Positions 1-6,000 of a stretch of DNA of 64,000 bases are shown here, piece after piece (positions within the stretch are counted from its first letter, which is position 1; each line of letters opens with the position of its first letter). The position numbers were made by a program. The DNA is from Candidatus Megaera sp. (GTDB lineage Bacteria; Pseudomonadota; Alphaproteobacteria; Rickettsiales; Rickettsiaceae), in the NCBI GenBank assembly GCA_965229545.1, contig OZ245887.1:1244443-1308442 (forward strand), read 5' to 3'.

Positions 1-3000
1 AATCAACATATGTTATAGCATAAATCCCTCTGATTTACAAATCCTTGCTTATAATTAAACCGGAAAAAACAGGTTATTCAGCCTGAGTCCTCTAGTTAGT
101 TATGATTAACTGCAAGTTATATTTTGCGGAATAATCAGCATCCTGGGATATGTTCAAAATAAGTTCTGCAAAATTATTGTATGTCTTGTCGTAATCTAAA
201 TTTACCATAAGAACTCTCAAAATTAGGTGATAATAAGTTTTAGCTTCTAAAAAAACTTTTTATAAATGTTTTTAAACTCCTCAACAGTGATGAACAATGA
301 ATCAACTAAAGGTAGTTTCTGAACTCCACATTCTACATATAACTCATGAAATTCGGACTTTTGTTGTTCTGTATAGAGGGGTTCACCATTATCGTTAAAT
401 TTAATGTTCTTTAAGCTACTATCCGGTTTTAGGAGCTTATCGAGGTTGTGGTAATTTCCATGTCCTATTTCTTTACAAATAGTTGCTGGTGATGGAGTAT
501 CCTTAAAGTCAAGGCCGAAGCCAAGAACCAAGAGGCTAATTACTGCTAAAGCTACAAACCAGACAAGTATTCCTGTTATATGTTTTTTTAATACGTTCAT
601 GGGTTTTTAGAGATCAATATTTAGAGTGTCGATAATCACCTCCGGGCTTAAACCGGTATAATCCTTAGTATCGTTTTGAATAATTCGGCCTCGGATTTTG
701 GTAAGAGCCGGTAAAACCAGAGCAGTTTCTGATTCTTCAATTTTTTTAATTAAGCGATTAATTGAATCTTTCGATTTTTCATCTGTTTTTGTTTTTAGAT
801 CATCTTTTAATGATGGTAGTTTCTTTTTGAATGCAACCGATACCGGTACTGTTTTTGCTTTGATATTTATTATACGACCATCTATTTCGTGATTTTTAAT
901 AATACCGTTATCTTCACAGGTAATTCCTTTAAAGCTGATTTCAATAGTATCAGGGTTAACAACACTCGAGTGAGCGAATCCTGGGGATTATACATAGGTT
1001 TTGGGATCCGGCAAGTTCGATACCAACATCTGCTCGCAAACTACGACCACTTGTTAAAACTGCTAACTCATTCATTAATTTTCCGGAAAAAGATTTGCCA
1101 TTAATAAAATTCTCTATCGAAAAATCAGTTTTAGCAAAATCAGGCTTTTGCGGTGAATTCAAGGCTTTGCGCGAAGATGAAAAGATAATATGCTGAGTAA
1201 AAAGCAGAACACCTATGCCTGAAACCAGAGAAAGGGTAGTTATTTTGGTTGCAACACCTTCCATCCCAATAAAGGAGAAAGCATTTTTAATTTTATTTAT
1301 ATTCATGATATTTTTTCTTATTTAAAGTCCATGAATTTATAAACTCTTAAGCAATTGCTCAAATTTGTTTACTTCATTAGACACTGCTGCTTTTTGCATT
1401 TCAATAGCAATTTTAGTTATGATATTACGATTTTCAGGTAAATAATGCTTCTCGGCTAGTTTTAGTAAATCTTCCGCTTCTTTCAGAAAACACCTTGATT
1501 TTGAAATGTCGATAAATTGATAAAACAGAGGAGCGAGTGGGTTTTCTGAAAAATCATCGTAACTATTGTTATGTTTTATGTTCATAAACGACTTCTTAGT
1601 ATAAAAATATCTTTGGTTATTTATCTTTAAAAAATTCTACCAGTAAATTACTGATTTTTTCCTTATCAATATTCAAGTTGCCTGAAAATACGATACCGTC
1701 TTTTTTCCATGAGCCAATTACTTTTCCAGAGGGTAGGGTAATTAGTTCCTGCTTAACAGTTTCTTTGGTATTGATGATTTTATTGACCAGTTTTTCAATA
1801 TGTACACTACCTGCACCTTTTTTGATATCTTCAGCAATCTCGATGATTGCTTTTTTATGAGCGGGAGATTTTTTGGAAAGAGCCAGGATGGTTTCAGCGG
1901 CTCTTGCCGATACCCGTCCCATGTTACTGACTGCGTCCCAGATATCCTGATCTATTTTTGCAAAGGCAAGGTAGTTCTGCATTTTTTTCCTTGAGCAGCC
2001 AACTATTTCAGCTAACTTTTCCTGGGTAAGTTTTCCGTCCCGGTGCAGTTTTGCGTAGGATAGGCCTTTTGAATATTCACTTAAGGCCAGTTTTTCATTT
2101 TCCTTGATCTGGATGGTTGCAGCTTCTGCATCGGAAGTTTCAACAACTATTGCATCAATAGGAAGGTTAGCGGTTAAACAGGCCTGAAGGCGACGACTAC
2201 CTGCTATGACTTCATATTTGAATTTGCTATCGTCTTTAATAGGCCTAACGTAAATAGGGTTAATCTGACCGTTGCGTTTAATATCTTCGGCCAAAAGGTT
2301 AATGTCACCGAATTCAAAAGAATTGCGATCGGTATATTTCCATCTGGTACAAAGGCTTGGGTCGATTTTAATGATTTTCATAACACGTAAACTCATATCT
2401 TATCTATACCCTAATAGTATACATGAAATAACCAGACAAAACAAGAAAAATATCAAAATATAATATTAAATATCATTACTTATTGTTATCATATTATAAT
2501 AGTAATACTATTATCATAAATAGTTAAAAAAAAGTTAAAAGATTTGATTTGACGGCTAGAGGTATGGAAAGAGTAAAAAGACGCTGTAAAACAGAGTCGG
2601 GCTTGATTGGAGCGGTAAGATCTAATGGAAGTAAGGGGGAGACGTAAGAGCTTAGAGCGCGCTGTAACAAGGCGACAAACAGTGTCTTATCTTCTTACTA
2701 TTTCCGTGATGAAAACCGTGTAACCCATCAAATCAACCCGAAAAGGTTTAAAGTAGGTAAGGGAAGTTAAAACAGGCAGTAGCTCAAGGGTAAGGTGTGA
2801 GACAAAGGTTAAGAAAAAAAGCTCCAGATGGAGCATTTTTTCCGTTTAAGGAGCTATTTACCCTTAGGGATAGTTAAAAGTAATTGACACTAAAAAGGAG
2901 GGGTATTGTTTAGCTGTGTGTTTTTATGACAACTATTCTTGAGTGGTAAGAAAATAATAAGAAAAAATATAAATATTCTTTTTATTGTTGATATTTTAGA

Positions 3001-6000
3001 ATATTCTATATATAATATAAGTATAAGTAAATAAATAAAGGAGACAAAAAAATGAACACACAATACAGCAGGAAATAATGAACCCGATTAATCAAATCAG
3101 CATCGCTACTACCGATAAGACTAACAGGGAATATCAAATTACGTTGTTGAGGCAATATTTAACGAGGGGTGTCAAAGAAATTAAAAAGCTTATTGATAAT
3201 AATTCAGCAGAATAAGGGGGGGTAAAAGATTATGAGTACAAGAGCAACTTATCAAATAAGCTATGCAGATAATTATAGGAATACATCCATTTATATTTAC
3301 TGCCATCATGATAACTACCATACCGGGGCAGCTACCAGATTCAAGGATACGTTAGAGTTAAGGAAACGGCTTAAAAAGAAATATTTAAACAATGATTTCC
3401 TGGAATGTTTTATTGCCGCTAATACTAAGAATACTTTTTTAGAGATAACGACTAATCATGACGACCATTTCGACACGGATTATTCGTACGATATAGTAAT
3501 TATGGATGGCATATATTTAAAGGCTTATAACCATTACTTTGTTAACGGTCAGAAATTTCACACTGAGAAATCTTTATACTACGATGGATTACTTATAGAC
3601 TTCATGAAGATGGAGCTATCGGAAGAAAATATAAAAAAAGAAGAAGAACAAGAGGAGCGTATAAGGCAATTAGAGATAATGACCAGTTGGTATATACAAA
3701 AGTAAATAAAAAGTAACTAAAAAATATGTAATTATAAACAAAATGGAGGAATAAAATGAGCAAAAAAGAAAAATGGGAAACTGAACCTGATTATCTACAC
3801 TGCATAGATGAAGAAACGGGATACTTTTATTACATTTATAGAGATCCTGAATGCAAGCATTTATGCGGTTATGTGGAAATACCCAATACACACAAAGTAT
3901 ATTGGCTTTCTTATATGGATGAGTTGTTCTACGACATAGACGTTCACGGAGGCGTAGCTTATACCGGAACGTTGGAAAATCCTTACGCAAAGGATATCAG
4001 GCATAACTATGTAGTTGGTTTTGATTGTAATTATGCCGGCGATTATGCCCCGGCCAGAAAATATCCTGATTTTTACAAGGTATCGAAAAAAGATTATAAG
4101 GATATGGATTTTGTAATATCAGAATGTAAAAAACTAGCTAAACAGTTAAAGGATATGGAGGATTAAAGATAAAGCTATTAGTATAACCCCTTATATATTA
4201 AATAACCGGATAAAAAATATCCAAATATAATTTTGAAAATAGCTATTTATTATTATATTATATTAATAGTACTATTACCTTAAGCGGTTAAAAAAAGTTA
4301 AGAGATTGGATTTAGCGGGGAGGGCAACAGGATGTGCGGCAAGGGAACGCTGCGAAACAGAGCATAGGCTTGATTGGAGTGGGAAGATGTAATGGAAGTA
4401 AGGGGGCATAACAGCTTGGAGCATGATGTAACAAGTCAACAAACAGTGCCTTTGCCTCTTTCCGTGAAGTCATTATGCCCCCGCCCACCAAATCAACCCG
4501 CAAAGGGTTGGAGTAGGAAAGGGAAGTTGGAACAGATCGTAGCTCAAGGGTAAGTTGTGGTACGGCGGTTAAGTAAAAAAGCTCCAGATGGAGCTTTTTT
4601 ACATTTAATCGGTTATTTACTCTTAAGAAGATAGTTAAGTAATGGACACTAAAAAGAGGGGGTAGTTTAGCTGTGTGCTTTAACGGTAACTATTCCCATG
4701 CGGTAAAAAATAATGTAAAAAAAGATATAAATATTCTTTTTATTATTGATGTTCTTAAATATTCTATATATAATATAAGTATAAGGTAAATAAATAAAGG
4801 AGACAAAAAAATGAACACACAAACACAACAGGAAATAATAAACCTGATTAATCAAATCAGCATCGCTACTACTGATAAGGGCAACGATGAATACCAAATT
4901 GAATTACTGACCCAACATTTAACAGAAATAGCTAAGGGTGTTGATATCAGAACAATGTTCGTACCCGACGGTAAAATAGGAGATGCGGGAGCTATAGCAC
5001 TGGCAGCAATCCTAAAGCAAAACACCACATTGGAACAACTTGCCATTCAAAATCACAATATAGGAGATAAGGGAGCTATAGCCCTTGCAGAGGGCTTAAA
5101 GCATAACACCACAGTAAGGTTGATTGACCTTTCCCATAATAAGATCGGCGAAGTAGGGATTGTTGTCATGGCCGAAGCTATTAAGCAGAATGCTACCATT
5201 GAATTAGTTATCCTTCAGGGGATTGATATGACTGCAAAATGTTCTGCGGCACTTAATAAAGTCTGGGAAAGGATTCGGGAGGTGGAGGAAGAAGATCCCC
5301 ATCAAAATTGCGTTGGGTGTGGGTGTTGTGTACCAGATTGGTTATAAGGAAAAGTTAAAATAAAAAACAATAAAAACGGAGTAAAAAAATGATTAAATTA
5401 AGACGGGTATTCTCAGGCATACATATTGAACCCTTTTATAAAGACTATTATTTACCGCAGTTTAATTTGCAAGAAAAACTATGGGACGGTTACCACGATG
5501 TTATTATACCTGATTTTATAATTCAGGAAGAGGCAAAAGAAAATTACGACGTTGCAGACTTTGACAATGATGAAGAAGAGATGCTGTGGACAGTAAGAAA
5601 CACGATGATTGATGATGCTTTAATGTATAATTGGGTTTATGCTCCTCGTGTTTACAACGAAGAAGTAGCACACTTATGTCATCTAATACCTTTTAGACTC
5701 ACCACATCAGAAGAAGATTATGAATTGTTATCTTTTGGCGGTTGCGGGATGGATATGACATACAAACTTGAAGCTTACCAGTTACTAGCGGATGATTCAT
5801 ACGACGCAAATTCAAATTTTGCCAAACAGGGCATTAAGTATTTTGAATATTATTACGGGAAAGAAAGCGGGGTATTACAGGAAATAAAAAAGCGTTCCGA
5901 TTTAAAAATAGCAGGTTAAAAGGTGTTAAAAAATTTATTTACATTCTTACTGCAGTTTTTAACTTTGTCACTGCAATTCTTGCAATTATAAAATTTCAAA

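What the first reader, a model, noticed from the sequence alone, without database searches (positions are those of the whole stretch)
2494..4925. Two diverged, long-range-folding promoter modules in the presumed leading region (candidate ssDNA promoter or ssi)
Seen: two ~670-bp collinear modules with the same parts in order: palindrome, ~190-nt imperfect stem, perfect hairpin, outer closing stem, TTGAT(A/G)-N17-TATAAT promoter, AAGGAGA RBS. Pairings survive sequence change. Copy 1 has aagacgctgt/acagtgtctt, ggaaagagtaa/ttactatttcc and taaatag/ctattta. The equivalent positions in copy 2 have ggcaaggg/cctttgcc, cgctg/cagtg and taagcggttaa/ttaatcggtta. Several plus-strand A-C mismatches become G-T pairs on the minus strand. 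All downstream genes point toward the presumed oriT/traA. Established: in F-like plasmids the first-transferred strand carries Frpo-type stem-loop promoters driving genes oriented toward oriT. Inference: this is a RAGE leading region with repeated single-strand early-expression cassettes; I know of no such description for Rickettsiales elements.
Basis: partly seen in the sequence, partly recalled or inferred. Interest (0 to 1): 0.8.

Follow-up and report, generated by a model that had tools for sequence, protein, structure and literature searches.

The report
Duplicated parB-side promoter and terminator cassette
The two repeats are real copies of the control region next to parB in a decayed conjugative element of a Megaera (Rickettsiaceae) symbiont. 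They look like ordinary double-stranded promoter-plus-terminator cassettes with a fast-evolving, possibly transcribed, noncoding spacer, not single-stranded-DNA promoters.

Summary
The two collinear modules are real: about 2397-3165 and 4167-4925, roughly 80% identical. Each is a copy of the whole intergenic region next to parB plus the first ~37 codons of the downstream gene. The window is a decayed F-type-T4SS/TraA_Ti conjugative element of a Candidatus Megaera strain. Fourteen distinct homologous modules, in three sequence types, were collected from Megaera plasmids, a chromosome and metagenomes.

Only two parts are clearly under constraint:
- the A-tract/GC-hairpin/T-tract, a bidirectional intrinsic terminator that is also a 16-bp palindrome, kept with compensatory changes;
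- the ~200 bp carrying a near-consensus sigma-70 promoter, RBS and start codon.

The ~290-nt "long-stem" segment is GC-richer and purine-skewed. It evolves as fast as synonymous sites or faster. Only its closing helix shows compensatory change between copies, and most polymorphisms within a type break the predicted pairs.

The Frpo/ssDNA-promoter reading fails its testable defining features. The promoter hexamers are not in a stem, there is no similarity to known Frpo/ssi, there is no T-strand preference, and the stem is not conserved.

Position in a leading region is supported only through relatives. The window itself has lost the relaxase domain and the oriT motif. The spacer may be a plus-strand ncRNA, but the RNA evidence is weak.

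The parts
1617..2396 (-). parB (259 aa). ParB_N + HTH_ParB, canonical ParB/Noc-type CTPase fold family, transcribed away from module 1.
   Evidence: Pfam; PDB sequence matches to Noc/ParB/Spo0J; 90% identical to the Megaera plasmid ParB.
2397..2525 (.). AT-rich divergent promoter zone of module 1. It includes the palindrome ATAATAGTA-ata-CTATTAT (about 2496-2514) and weak + strand promoter-like sites (TTATCA-N17-TATTAT, 2486-2514).
   Evidence: Homologous to 4167-4289 in module 2. The palindrome is not kept in type-3 homologues.
2526..2814 (+). Noncoding element, type 1. GC-richer and purine-skewed. Contains an imperfect long inverted repeat and conserved blocks such as TTGATTGGAG..GAAGAT..ATGGAAGTAAGGGGG, ATCAAATCAACCCG and GCTCAAGGGTAAG.
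   Evidence: Composition. No ORF and no codon periodicity. No Rfam match. Evolves at or above the synonymous rate. RNA-run contig 2548-2808.
2546..2563 (+). 5' strand of the closing helix of element 1. It pairs with 2716-2734.
   Evidence: 11 of 15 pairs in copy 1; four positions differ from copy 2 on both sides with pairing kept.
2716..2734 (+). 3' strand of the closing helix of element 1. Contains the invariant TCAAATC.
2815..2842 (.). A-run, GCTCC-agat-GGAGC, T-run. A bidirectional intrinsic-terminator-like hairpin that is also a near-perfect 16-bp palindrome.
   Evidence: Terminator scan on both strands. 100% conserved between strains. ACCACAcgTGTGGT in type 3 gives three compensatory pairs. 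It is the only helix predicted in all types. The same sequence lies next to parB in distant relatives.
2843..2960 (.). Conserved leader between the hairpin and the promoter, with blocks GACACTAAAAA, TTTAGCTGTGTG and ACTATT.
   Evidence: Alignment of 14 homologues. 87-94% identical between strains. Highest contig depth in one metatranscriptome.
2961..3051 (+). AT-rich upstream element, -35 TTGATA (2988-2993), -10 TATAAT (3011-3016), 5'UTR and SD AAGGAGA (3038-3044).
   Evidence: 11 of 12 match. Near-invariant in all 14 homologues, including the plasmid type.
3052..3215 (+). Remnant of a 54-aa ORF that shares its N-terminus with the LRR protein of module 2. It is broken in the window by a 1-nt deletion at about 3061 (ATG 3052, stop after 8 codons, then a 45-aa ORF at 3078-3215).
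   Evidence: Contigs from other samples carry an extra A at 3061. The ORF is intact at 54 aa in L057-L060.
4167..4289 (.). Module 2 copy of the AT-rich parB-proximal zone, with no parB next to it. Palindrome TAATAGTACTATTA.
4290..4574 (+). Noncoding element, type 2. Its closing helix, 4309-4326 with 4476-4494, is 15 of 15 Watson-Crick.
   Evidence: RNA-run contigs 4375-4586 and 4409-4608 and 4497-4647.
4575..4602 (.). Second copy of the A-run, GCTCCagatGGAGC, T-run hairpin/palindrome.
   Evidence: (I13). The loop is inverted (AGAT or ATCT) in different strains.
4603..4810 (+). Module 2 leader, -35 TTGATG (4746-4751), -10 TATAAT (4769-4774), SD AAGGAGA (4797-4803).
4811..5347 (+). LRR_6 (RNI-like leucine-rich repeat) protein of 178 aa. 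Its first ~37 codons belong to the duplicated unit.
6328..13540 (+). TraA_Ti-like gene, split into two overlapping ORFs (AAA_30 helicase; DUF6371/Toprim primase-like). It lacks the first ~206 aa, which form the MobA_MobL relaxase domain.
   Evidence: Pfam. tblastn with intact TraA from L041 and L001 starts at residue about 207. No nic motif in the window.

Best explanation
Each module is a paralogous copy of the complete parB-proximal control region of a Megaera conjugative element. The region was duplicated together with the 5' end of the first downstream gene.

It works as an ordinary double-stranded-DNA expression cassette. A near-consensus sigma-70 promoter with an AT-rich upstream element, a conserved 5'UTR and a strong RBS drives small leading-region genes. 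It is insulated upstream by a bidirectional intrinsic terminator.

The ~290-nt GC-richer, purine-skewed segment in front of the terminator is most likely a short plus-strand transcription unit. That would be a lineage-specific noncoding RNA, or the structured 3' end of the upstream transcript, started in the AT-rich zone shared with the parB promoter and ended at the hairpin. A closing helix and a few sequence blocks in it are maintained, while the rest drifts.

Shown: the duplication, the terminator form and its compensatory changes, the conservation of the promoter, and the lack of conservation of the long stem.
Inferred: that the segment is transcribed on the plus strand, and any role of that RNA.
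For: - The duplication runs from the parB start codon to codon ~37.
- The promoter matches the consensus at 11 of 12 and 10 of 12 positions.
- Between strains the promoter/5'UTR is 92-95% identical and the terminator 93-100%. The element is 88-89% identical, against 83-98% at third codon positions of neighbouring genes.
- Against the plasmid copy the element is ~72% identical, while ParB third positions are 81% identical.
- The terminator hairpin is the only helix predicted in all three types on either strand. It carries three compensatory pairs.
- A terminator in the middle of a divergent intergenic region implies that a transcript ends there.
- The element is a GC-rich, G>C and A>T island. 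It has no ORF and no codon periodicity.
- G.T pairs on the plus strand exceed A.C pairs, 37 to 8 in the inner helices. In type 3 the closing helix has four G.T and one A.C.
- The closing helix has four compensatory pairs between types. Pairs changed on both sides number 15 against 10.2 in shuffles (4 of 500 shuffles reach 15).
- In the type-3 consensus fold, the 46-nt insertion forms its own small hairpin between predicted helices.
- In low-depth RNA-type runs the element is among the few parts of the locus recovered. In X25 its one sizeable match in 12 kb is 2548-2808. X35 gives 4375-4586 and X38 gives 4409-4608, both ending at the hairpin.
- Relatives with different sequences also carry repeated promoter cassettes, each preceded by a palindrome (L056, L051).
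Against: - No strand-specific RNA data are available.
- Wastewater metatranscriptomes cover the whole locus fairly evenly and may contain DNA.
- Contig ends at the hairpin can be assembly breaks at a palindrome.
- One RNA contig (4497-4647) runs through the hairpin.
- The upstream plus-strand promoter is weak (9 of 12) and not clearly conserved.
- The element evolves as fast as neutral sites.
- Most within-type substitutions in the predicted stems break pairs.
- RNAalifold finds no strong consensus fold: -34.7 kcal/mol for about 320 nt.
- No Rfam family matches.
- The compensatory changes could come from template switching within a quasi-palindrome, without selection.
Confidence: 0.5

Rival explanations
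1. ParB-gated cassette. The 16-bp palindrome in each module (AGCTCCAGATGGAGCT; TACCACACGTGTGGTA in the plasmid type) is a parS/operator-like loading site for the adjacent ParB-family CTPase. ParB would then silence both its own promoter and the leading-gene promoters, as KorB does at O_B sites on IncP plasmids. That would give a burst of expression on entry into a ParB-free cell. The hairpin may serve as a terminator as well.
For: - The palindrome is the longest sequence, or ties for longest, that the window's intergenic region shares with three of the distant relatives checked (L040, L045, L046), where flanking sequence is not alignable and ParB is only 67-71% identical.
- There is one palindrome per promoter cassette in the window, and in L056 with a different palindrome that has no T-run.
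- An extra copy lies downstream of parB in L047 and L049.
- The protein is a canonical ParB/Noc-type protein.
- The site is 16 bp long, and the plasmid-type site has a CACGTG core like chromosomal parS (my own knowledge of parS; a lead, not a test).
- Two residues in the HTH_ParB domain (AETI versus ADTI; GAGSV versus GAGTR) change together with the palindrome type, independently of overall ParB relatedness.
Against: - The A-run/T-run flanks are conserved and fit a terminator better than a protein site.
- The covariation rests on only 10 ParB sequences.
- No ParA gene was seen near parB.
- Other Rickettsiaceae plasmids have unrelated hairpins upstream of parB.
- No binding data exist.
Confidence: 0.2
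2. On the transferred (minus) strand the long hairpin works as a single-stranded-DNA element in the recipient, before complementary-strand synthesis. It would be either an Frpo-like promoter for the downstream genes or an ssi priming site for the primase-like C-terminal domain of TraA.
For: - By synteny with relatives that carry a MOBQ-like nic motif, the region is a leading region and the transferred strand is the template for the genes.
- The arms of the long stem are complementary beyond chance in both window copies on both strands.
- The closing helix shows compensatory change.
- TraA carries a DUF6371/Toprim primase-like domain that would need a priming site.
- Frpo-type elements are common in leading regions (PMC11541004).
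Against: - The -35/-10 hexamers are outside the stem and unpaired in the centroid ssDNA folds.
- There is no promoter-like site inside the stem.
- A terminator lies between the stem and the genes.
- There is no similarity to Frpo/ssi-bearing plasmids in PLSDB.
- The stem is not conserved across types or within types.
- Wobble pairs favour the plus strand, not the transferred strand.
- In the Megaera plasmid the first-entering genes are coded on the transferred strand itself.
- The window's element has no relaxase domain or nic site.
Confidence: 0.1
3. The ~290-nt segment has no function of its own. It would be a decaying quasi-palindrome, or a relic of a former sequence, carried along with the useful terminator and promoter. 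The apparent compensatory changes would come from template switching between the arms of the inverted repeat.
For: - Its divergence equals or exceeds that of synonymous sites.
- Paired columns are no more conserved than unpaired ones, and most changes break pairs.
- The arms are not complementary in the plasmid type.
- An apparent type-1/type-2 chimera with a disrupted stem is found in a metagenome contig, though it could be an assembly artefact (L012).
Against: - Several blocks of 10-45 nt are invariant across all three types.
- GC content and purine skew are kept.
- The element has been retained in every homologue found, over a divergence at which ParB third positions have dropped to 81% identity.
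Confidence: 0.2

Closest known systems
Frpo / ssi single-stranded-DNA promoters of F-like and IncI1 plasmids (Masai & Arai 1997; Samuel et al. 2024, PMC11541004)
   Same: - Noncoding, hairpin-capable elements repeated in front of small genes in a leading region.
- The genes are oriented so that the transferred strand is the template.
   Different: - In Frpo the -35 and -10 elements lie inside the stem, paired with their complements. Here they lie about 150-190 nt away, beyond a terminator, and are unpaired.
- There is no sequence similarity.
- The stem is not conserved among homologues.
Bidirectional Rho-independent terminators
   Same: - A GC-rich stem of 5-6 bp with a 4-nt loop.
- An A-tract before and a T-tract after, so it reads as a terminator on both strands.
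- The stem is maintained by compensatory changes.
   Different: - It sits in a divergent promoter region, where no annotated gene needs terminating.
- Its stem sequence is conserved across distant elements far better than the flanks, which is unusual for a terminator.
KorB-O_B regulon of IncP plasmids and ParB-parS (a ParB-family CTPase loading at 13-16-bp palindromes and silencing promoters at a distance)
   Same: - A ParB-family gene next to 16-bp palindromes, one ahead of each promoter of the neighbouring genes.
- The palindrome type changes together with residues of the ParB DNA-binding domain.
   Different: - No binding or regulation has been shown.
- The palindrome carries terminator-type flanks.
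- No ParA/IncC or KorA partner has been identified.
- The sequence is unrelated to O_B.
Small noncoding RNAs of AT-rich Rickettsiales genomes (GC-rich islands ending in intrinsic terminators)
   Same: - A GC-richer intergenic island with strand skew, a terminator and a closing helix.
- Present in RNA-derived contigs.
   Different: - No Rfam family matches.
- There is no strand-specific evidence and no conserved overall fold.
- It evolves very fast.

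Membership tests
Frpo/ssi-type ssDNA promoter | Lies in the leading region, upstream of genes for which the transferred strand is the template | tested here: inconclusive
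   - Met by synteny. Relatives have an inverted repeat + TAAGTGCGCAT about 100 nt upstream of TraA on the opposite strand, and the genes at 3232-5919 are on the + strand.
- The window itself lacks the nic motif and the relaxase domain.
Frpo/ssi-type ssDNA promoter | -35 and -10 elements lie within the stem of the folded single strand, paired with complementary segments | tested here: not met
   - The promoter hexamers at 2988-3016 and 4746-4774 are unpaired in the centroid ssDNA folds. Only the copy-1 MFE pairs them, with a distant AT-rich stretch.
- No promoter-like site (at least 9 of 12) lies within 2544-2736 or 4307-4496 on either strand.
Frpo/ssi-type ssDNA promoter | Sequence similarity to known Frpo/ssi (the BLAST criterion of Samuel et al. 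2024) | tested here: not met
   blastn of 2400-3060 against 72,556 PLSDB plasmids finds only the Megaera plasmid CP113868.1.
Frpo/ssi-type ssDNA promoter | The stem-loop is conserved among homologues | tested here: not met
   - Only the terminator hairpin is shared by all three types.
- Arm-duplex z is about 0 in type 3.
- Within-type changes mostly break pairs.
- Only the closing helix covaries.
Frpo/ssi-type ssDNA promoter | Active on single-stranded but not on double-stranded template | not testable with these tools
   Needs in vitro transcription or a conjugation reporter.
Rho-independent terminator | GC-rich hairpin followed by a U-tract | tested here: met
   The consensus scan finds it on both strands at 2821-2834. 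Copy 2 (4581-4594) carries the identical stem followed by a T-run but is not listed by that scan. The T-run is 4-7 nt on each side in all 14 homologues.
Rho-independent terminator | Stem kept by compensatory substitutions | tested here: met
   GCTCC/GGAGC becomes ACCAC/GTGGT. Three of five pairs change on both sides and all cells stay paired.
Sigma-70 promoter with RBS | TTGACA-like and TATAAT-like hexamers 17 nt apart, SD 5-9 nt before the ATG | tested here: met
   The hexamers match at 11 of 12 and 10 of 12 positions. AAGGAGA lies 7 nt before the ATG. The region is near-invariant in 14 homologues.
ParB-parS / KorB-O_B operator | 16-bp palindrome near a ParB-family gene, in more than one copy | tested here: met
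ParB-parS / KorB-O_B operator | The site is bound by the cognate ParB, and specificity co-evolves with it | tested here: inconclusive
   Two residues of the HTH domain covary with palindrome type in 10 sequences. Binding is not testable here.
RAGE-type integrative conjugative element | F-type T4SS genes plus TraA_Ti/TraD, integrated next to a tRNA with a recombinase | tested here: inconclusive
   - TraE/K/C/U/N/H, a TraA-like gene and a truncated T4CP are present.
- A recombinase lies next to a tRNA at 52689-54277, but it is a serine recombinase.
- The element is interrupted by IS copies and a group II intron.
Described RNA families (Rfam 15) | Match at or near the gathering score | tested here: not met
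   No family matches at E <= 10 apart from terminator-driven noise (Phe_leader at 25 bits against a 55-bit cut-off).

The most novel reading that the evidence does not exclude
Each cassette is a two-layer early-expression switch of a Rickettsiales conjugative element. The 16-bp palindrome would be both a bidirectional terminator and the loading site of the adjacent ParB-family CTPase. ParB would silence the strong leading-gene promoters in established hosts and release them on entry into a new cell. The ~290-nt purine-rich segment would be a new plasmid-borne structured ncRNA that takes part in this control.
Probability: 0.15. Interest if true: 0.65.

Novelty: new member of a known kind. Interest (0 to 1): 0.35.

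Why it matters
The tests do not support it.

What remains is more modest but useful.
- It gives a documented layout of the parB-to-TraA leading region of Megaera and related Rickettsiaceae elements: repeated strong promoter cassettes, each preceded by a conserved palindromic terminator, and a MOBQ-like oriT motif in the intact relatives.
- It gives two concrete, testable leads: a candidate lineage-specific ncRNA, and a possible ParB operator.
- It also shows that pairings which seem to survive between two paralogues can vanish once population-level homologues are examined.

Tried and rejected
- Rfam, at gathering thresholds on the window and at E <= 10 on the modules: nothing but terminator-driven noise.
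- An exact-pattern scan of GTDB genomes with conserved blocks of the element: no hit, because the blocks vary. A scan with the promoter pattern found only Megaera.
- An nhmmer profile of the module against loci around 16 ParB homologues of 67-75% identity (plus P0002 at 91%, whose locus L050 does carry the full module): only the promoter part recurs, in L051-L053 and L056, and the element does not.
- Pseudogene or coding remnant: no ORF and no 3-periodicity of substitutions.
- CsrA/Hfq/ProQ partner encoded nearby: none in the window. A ProQ/FinO-domain gene occurs only in relative L040.
- A minus-strand anti-SD-type sRNA between the hairpin and the promoter (2814-2937). It was suggested by a C-rich stretch, weak RsaE/Phe_leader hits and a 123-nt contig at 2815-2937. 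RNAalifold does not recover the proposed hairpins, the minus-strand promoter is not conserved, and one contig crosses the hairpin. It is left open, with no support.
- An attenuator/antiterminator model: the candidate competing segment (AGCTC in GTAGCTCAAGG) does not change with the terminator stem in type 3.
- TTGATTKG as a repeated protein-binding motif: 5 of 9 window copies are in the modules, but the total number is what chance gives.
- Annotation of the downstream genes as anti-defence: no Pfam, NCBIfam or PHROG function.
- Other Rickettsiaceae plasmids (pRF, pRNTEN_2, pMegNEIS296): parB again lies divergently next to the relaxase region in pRF (TraA_Ti) and pRNTEN_2 (a MOBP relaxase), but the upstream hairpins are unrelated.

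Full report
CONTEXT

The window carries a conjugative element with these parts:
- parB (1617-2396, minus strand);
- a run of small + strand genes;
- a TraA_Ti-like helicase/primase gene (6328-13540);
- F-type T4SS genes, with TraE, K, C, U, N and H found in the 24.9-41 kb stretch;
- a truncated coupling protein;
- a serine recombinase next to a tRNA.

It is interrupted by four copies of an IS and by a group II intron. The closest public sequences are a Candidatus Megaera polyxenophila plasmid (CP113868.1; locus L001) and a Megaera chromosome (NZ_CP104166.1; locus L002). The window is therefore a Megaera-type RAGE-like element.

THE OBSERVATION

The two modules are real. They are larger than described. 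Homology begins immediately beside the parB start codon and ends about 37 codons into the downstream ORF. Module 2 is thus a copy of the whole parB-side divergent intergenic region, without parB, plus the 5' end of the gene.

In order, the parts are:
- an AT-rich zone;
- a ~290-nt GC-richer, purine-skewed noncoding element;
- an A-run/GCTCC-N4-GGAGC/T-run hairpin;
- a ~120-nt conserved leader;
- a near-consensus sigma-70 promoter, SD and ATG.

HOMOLOGUES

Pattern scans, ParB- and LRR-protein-anchored look-ups and a plasmid search yielded 14 distinct modules. All come from Megaera-like sequences.

They fall into three types:
- type 1, copy-1-like;
- type 2, copy-2-like;
- type 3, plasmid-like, with a 46-nt insertion.

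There are also natural or assembly chimeras (L012; joints).

Around ParB homologues of 67-75% identity the element is not detectable. A similar promoter recurs in L051-L053 and L056. The same hairpin sequence recurs next to parB in L040-L049, with one- or two-base variants in L041-L044 and L054.

WHAT IS CONSTRAINED

Between strains:
- the hairpin is 93-100% identical (100% in three of four comparisons);
- the promoter/5'UTR is 92-95% identical;
- the two elements are only 88-89% identical, which is at or below the identity of third codon positions in most neighbouring genes, 88-98% (LRR gene 83-84%).

Against the plasmid copy, the element is ~72% identical while ParB third positions are 81% identical. 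The promoter region stays close to invariant. The element has stops in all frames and no codon periodicity, and it matches no Rfam family.

THE LONG STEM

Fold energies are modestly better than shuffles, with z from -1.6 to -3.2. The two arms are complementary beyond chance in types 1 and 2, with z down to -5.8. In type 3 they are not, with z about 0.

Base-pair probabilities were mapped onto the alignment. Only the terminator hairpin is predicted at homologous columns in all three types, on either strand, with RNA or DNA parameters. Types 1 and 2 share only six pairs of the base helix.

On the 14-sequence alignment:
- The copy-1-derived stem shows no excess of compensatory pairs: 11 against 10.5 in shuffles.
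- The copy-2-derived stem does: 15 against 10.2, reached by 4 of 500 shuffles.
- That signal sits in the closing helix, 2546-2563/2716-2734 and 4309-4326/4476-4494. Four pairs there differ on both sides between types 1 and 2. Type 3 keeps 9 of 15 pairs, four of them G.T on the plus strand.

Within types, most substitutions in predicted stems break pairs, and paired columns are not better conserved than unpaired ones. The 'outer closing stem' is not in register between the copies.

Wobble pairs favour the plus strand, 37 G.T against 8 A.C in the inner helices. This is the opposite of what was claimed. Note that the structure used for this count came from a plus-strand fold, which biases it.

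THE ssDNA-PROMOTER IDEA

The positional logic is sound in relatives. L001, L040 and L046-L048 carry an inverted repeat followed by (A/G)TAAGTGCGCAT about 100 nt upstream of TraA, on the strand opposite to it. This resembles MOBQ oriT nick regions (my own knowledge; a lead only). The minus strand in window orientation would therefore be transferred first, running from TraA towards parB.

The window itself has lost the first ~206 residues of TraA, which form the relaxase domain, and it has no such motif.

The features that define Frpo (PMC11541004) fail:
- The hexamers are not in a stem.
- No promoter-like site lies inside the long stem.
- A terminator separates the stem from the genes.
- There is no similarity to any plasmid carrying Frpo/ssi.
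- The stem is not conserved.

RNA EVIDENCE

No strand-specific or raw-read run was available. Logan contigs give the following:
- X25: its one sizeable match in 12 kb is 2548-2808.
- X35 and X38: contigs 4375-4586 and 4409-4608, both ending at the hairpin.
- X36: a single contig, 4497-4647, which crosses the hairpin.
- The deeper wastewater metatranscriptomes cover the whole locus at similar depth, with at most a 2-4-fold rise around the hairpin and leader. They may contain DNA or collapse strains and copies together.

This is compatible with transcription of the element. It is not decisive.

THE HAIRPIN AS A PROTEIN SITE

The hairpin is a near-perfect 16-bp palindrome. It is perfect when the centre is TA, as in L045 (L041 carries a one-base variant). 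It is conserved where the flanks are not. It occurs once per cassette and again downstream of parB in L047/L049.

Its sequence type (GCTCCA..TGGAGC versus CCAC-CG-GTGG) changes together with two residues of the HTH_ParB domain, independently of overall ParB relatedness. ParB is of the canonical ParB/Noc CTPase kind.

A KorB-like role is therefore a live rival or a complement. It rests on few sequences, and the A/T-run flanks fit a terminator.

VERDICT

The modules are a duplicated, conventional promoter/terminator cassette of the parB-TraA leading region. Each includes a rapidly evolving noncoding segment that may be a plus-strand ncRNA with a maintained closing helix.

The single-stranded-promoter interpretation is not supported. 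It cannot be excluded without experiments.

Noticed in passing
window 6328-13540: The TraA_Ti-like gene is split into two overlapping ORFs (6328-9597 and 9572-13540). It lacks the N-terminal ~206 aa, the MobA_MobL relaxase domain, that intact relatives have. No MOBQ-like nic motif is present in the window, so the element is probably no longer self-transmissible.
   Followed up: yes
L001:16940(-), L040:1845, L046:3728 (also L047, L048): A conserved oriT-like motif lies about 100 nt upstream of TraA on the opposite strand: a 10-11-bp inverted repeat followed by (G/A)TAAGTGCGCAT(T/C). It resembles RSF1010/Ti-type nick regions.
   Followed up: partly
window 14020-16308: A group II intron lies immediately after a truncated PD-(D/E)XK/Transposase_31 ORF (13549-14019). 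Rfam matches: group-II-D1D4-7 at 14020-14165 and domain V at 16240-16308.
   Followed up: no
window 20317-21348, 26504-27535(-), 47232-48263, 62569-63600: Four ORFs of 343 aa; two were checked by Pfam and are DDE_3/HTH_33 transposases, so these are probably four copies of one IS. The ORF at 47232 lies just upstream of the truncated coupling-protein gene (TraD/TrwB-like, 48351-49256), which retains only the C-terminal part.
   Followed up: partly
window 3052-3215: The first ORF after module 1 is frameshifted in the window by a 1-nt deletion near 3061. Contigs from other samples and loci L057-L060 have the extra A and an intact 54-aa ORF. That ORF shares its N-terminal ~37 residues with the LRR protein after module 2.
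   Followed up: yes
window 2826-2829 / 4586-4589 and homologues: The 4-nt loop of the hairpin occurs as AGAT or as its reverse complement ATCT in different strains and copies, as if the hairpin centre had been inverted repeatedly.
   Followed up: partly
L012; joints 2596>4370 and 4406>2643 in runs X27, X32, X33, X37: Chimeric modules join the type-1 5' half to the type-2 3' half, and the reverse. This points to recombination or gene conversion between the two copies, or to assembly chimeras.
   Followed up: partly
L002:1380-3005 and 4247-5880: In the Megaera chromosome NZ_CP104166.1 the syntenic region carries two inverted copies of another IS. One is inserted in the 5'UTR after the module-1 promoter, and the upstream part of module 1 is replaced.
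   Followed up: no
L056:1560-1900 and 3346-3647: A relative with ParB 70% identical has two repeated promoter cassettes of its own. They share the -10/UTR style and are each preceded by the palindrome GTGCCGT(A/G)CGGAAC, which has no T-run. The gene next to parB there is an orphan HsdM-like N6 methyltransferase, a gene type common in plasmid leading regions.
   Followed up: partly
window 52689-54277: The 3' end of a serine recombinase gene (52689-54230) overlaps a tRNA gene on the opposite strand (54204-54277). This is probably the integration end of the element. RAGEs are usually described with tyrosine integrases.
   Followed up: no
window 21494-23065: A DnaA_N-domain protein (21494-22234) and a RickCE-like CE-clan protease/deubiquitinase (22259-23065) lie inside the element, ahead of the T4SS genes.
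   Followed up: no
window 3756-4166: The 136-aa protein between the modules matches PHROG family phrog_2164 (unknown function) at E = 3.6e-26. It has relatives in phages.
   Followed up: no
window 1-600 and 1683-2219 (run X1): The source-like DNA run X1 holds a second, diverged variant of the region left of and within parB, with about half of the total local depth. A second copy or a second strain is present in the sample.
   Followed up: no
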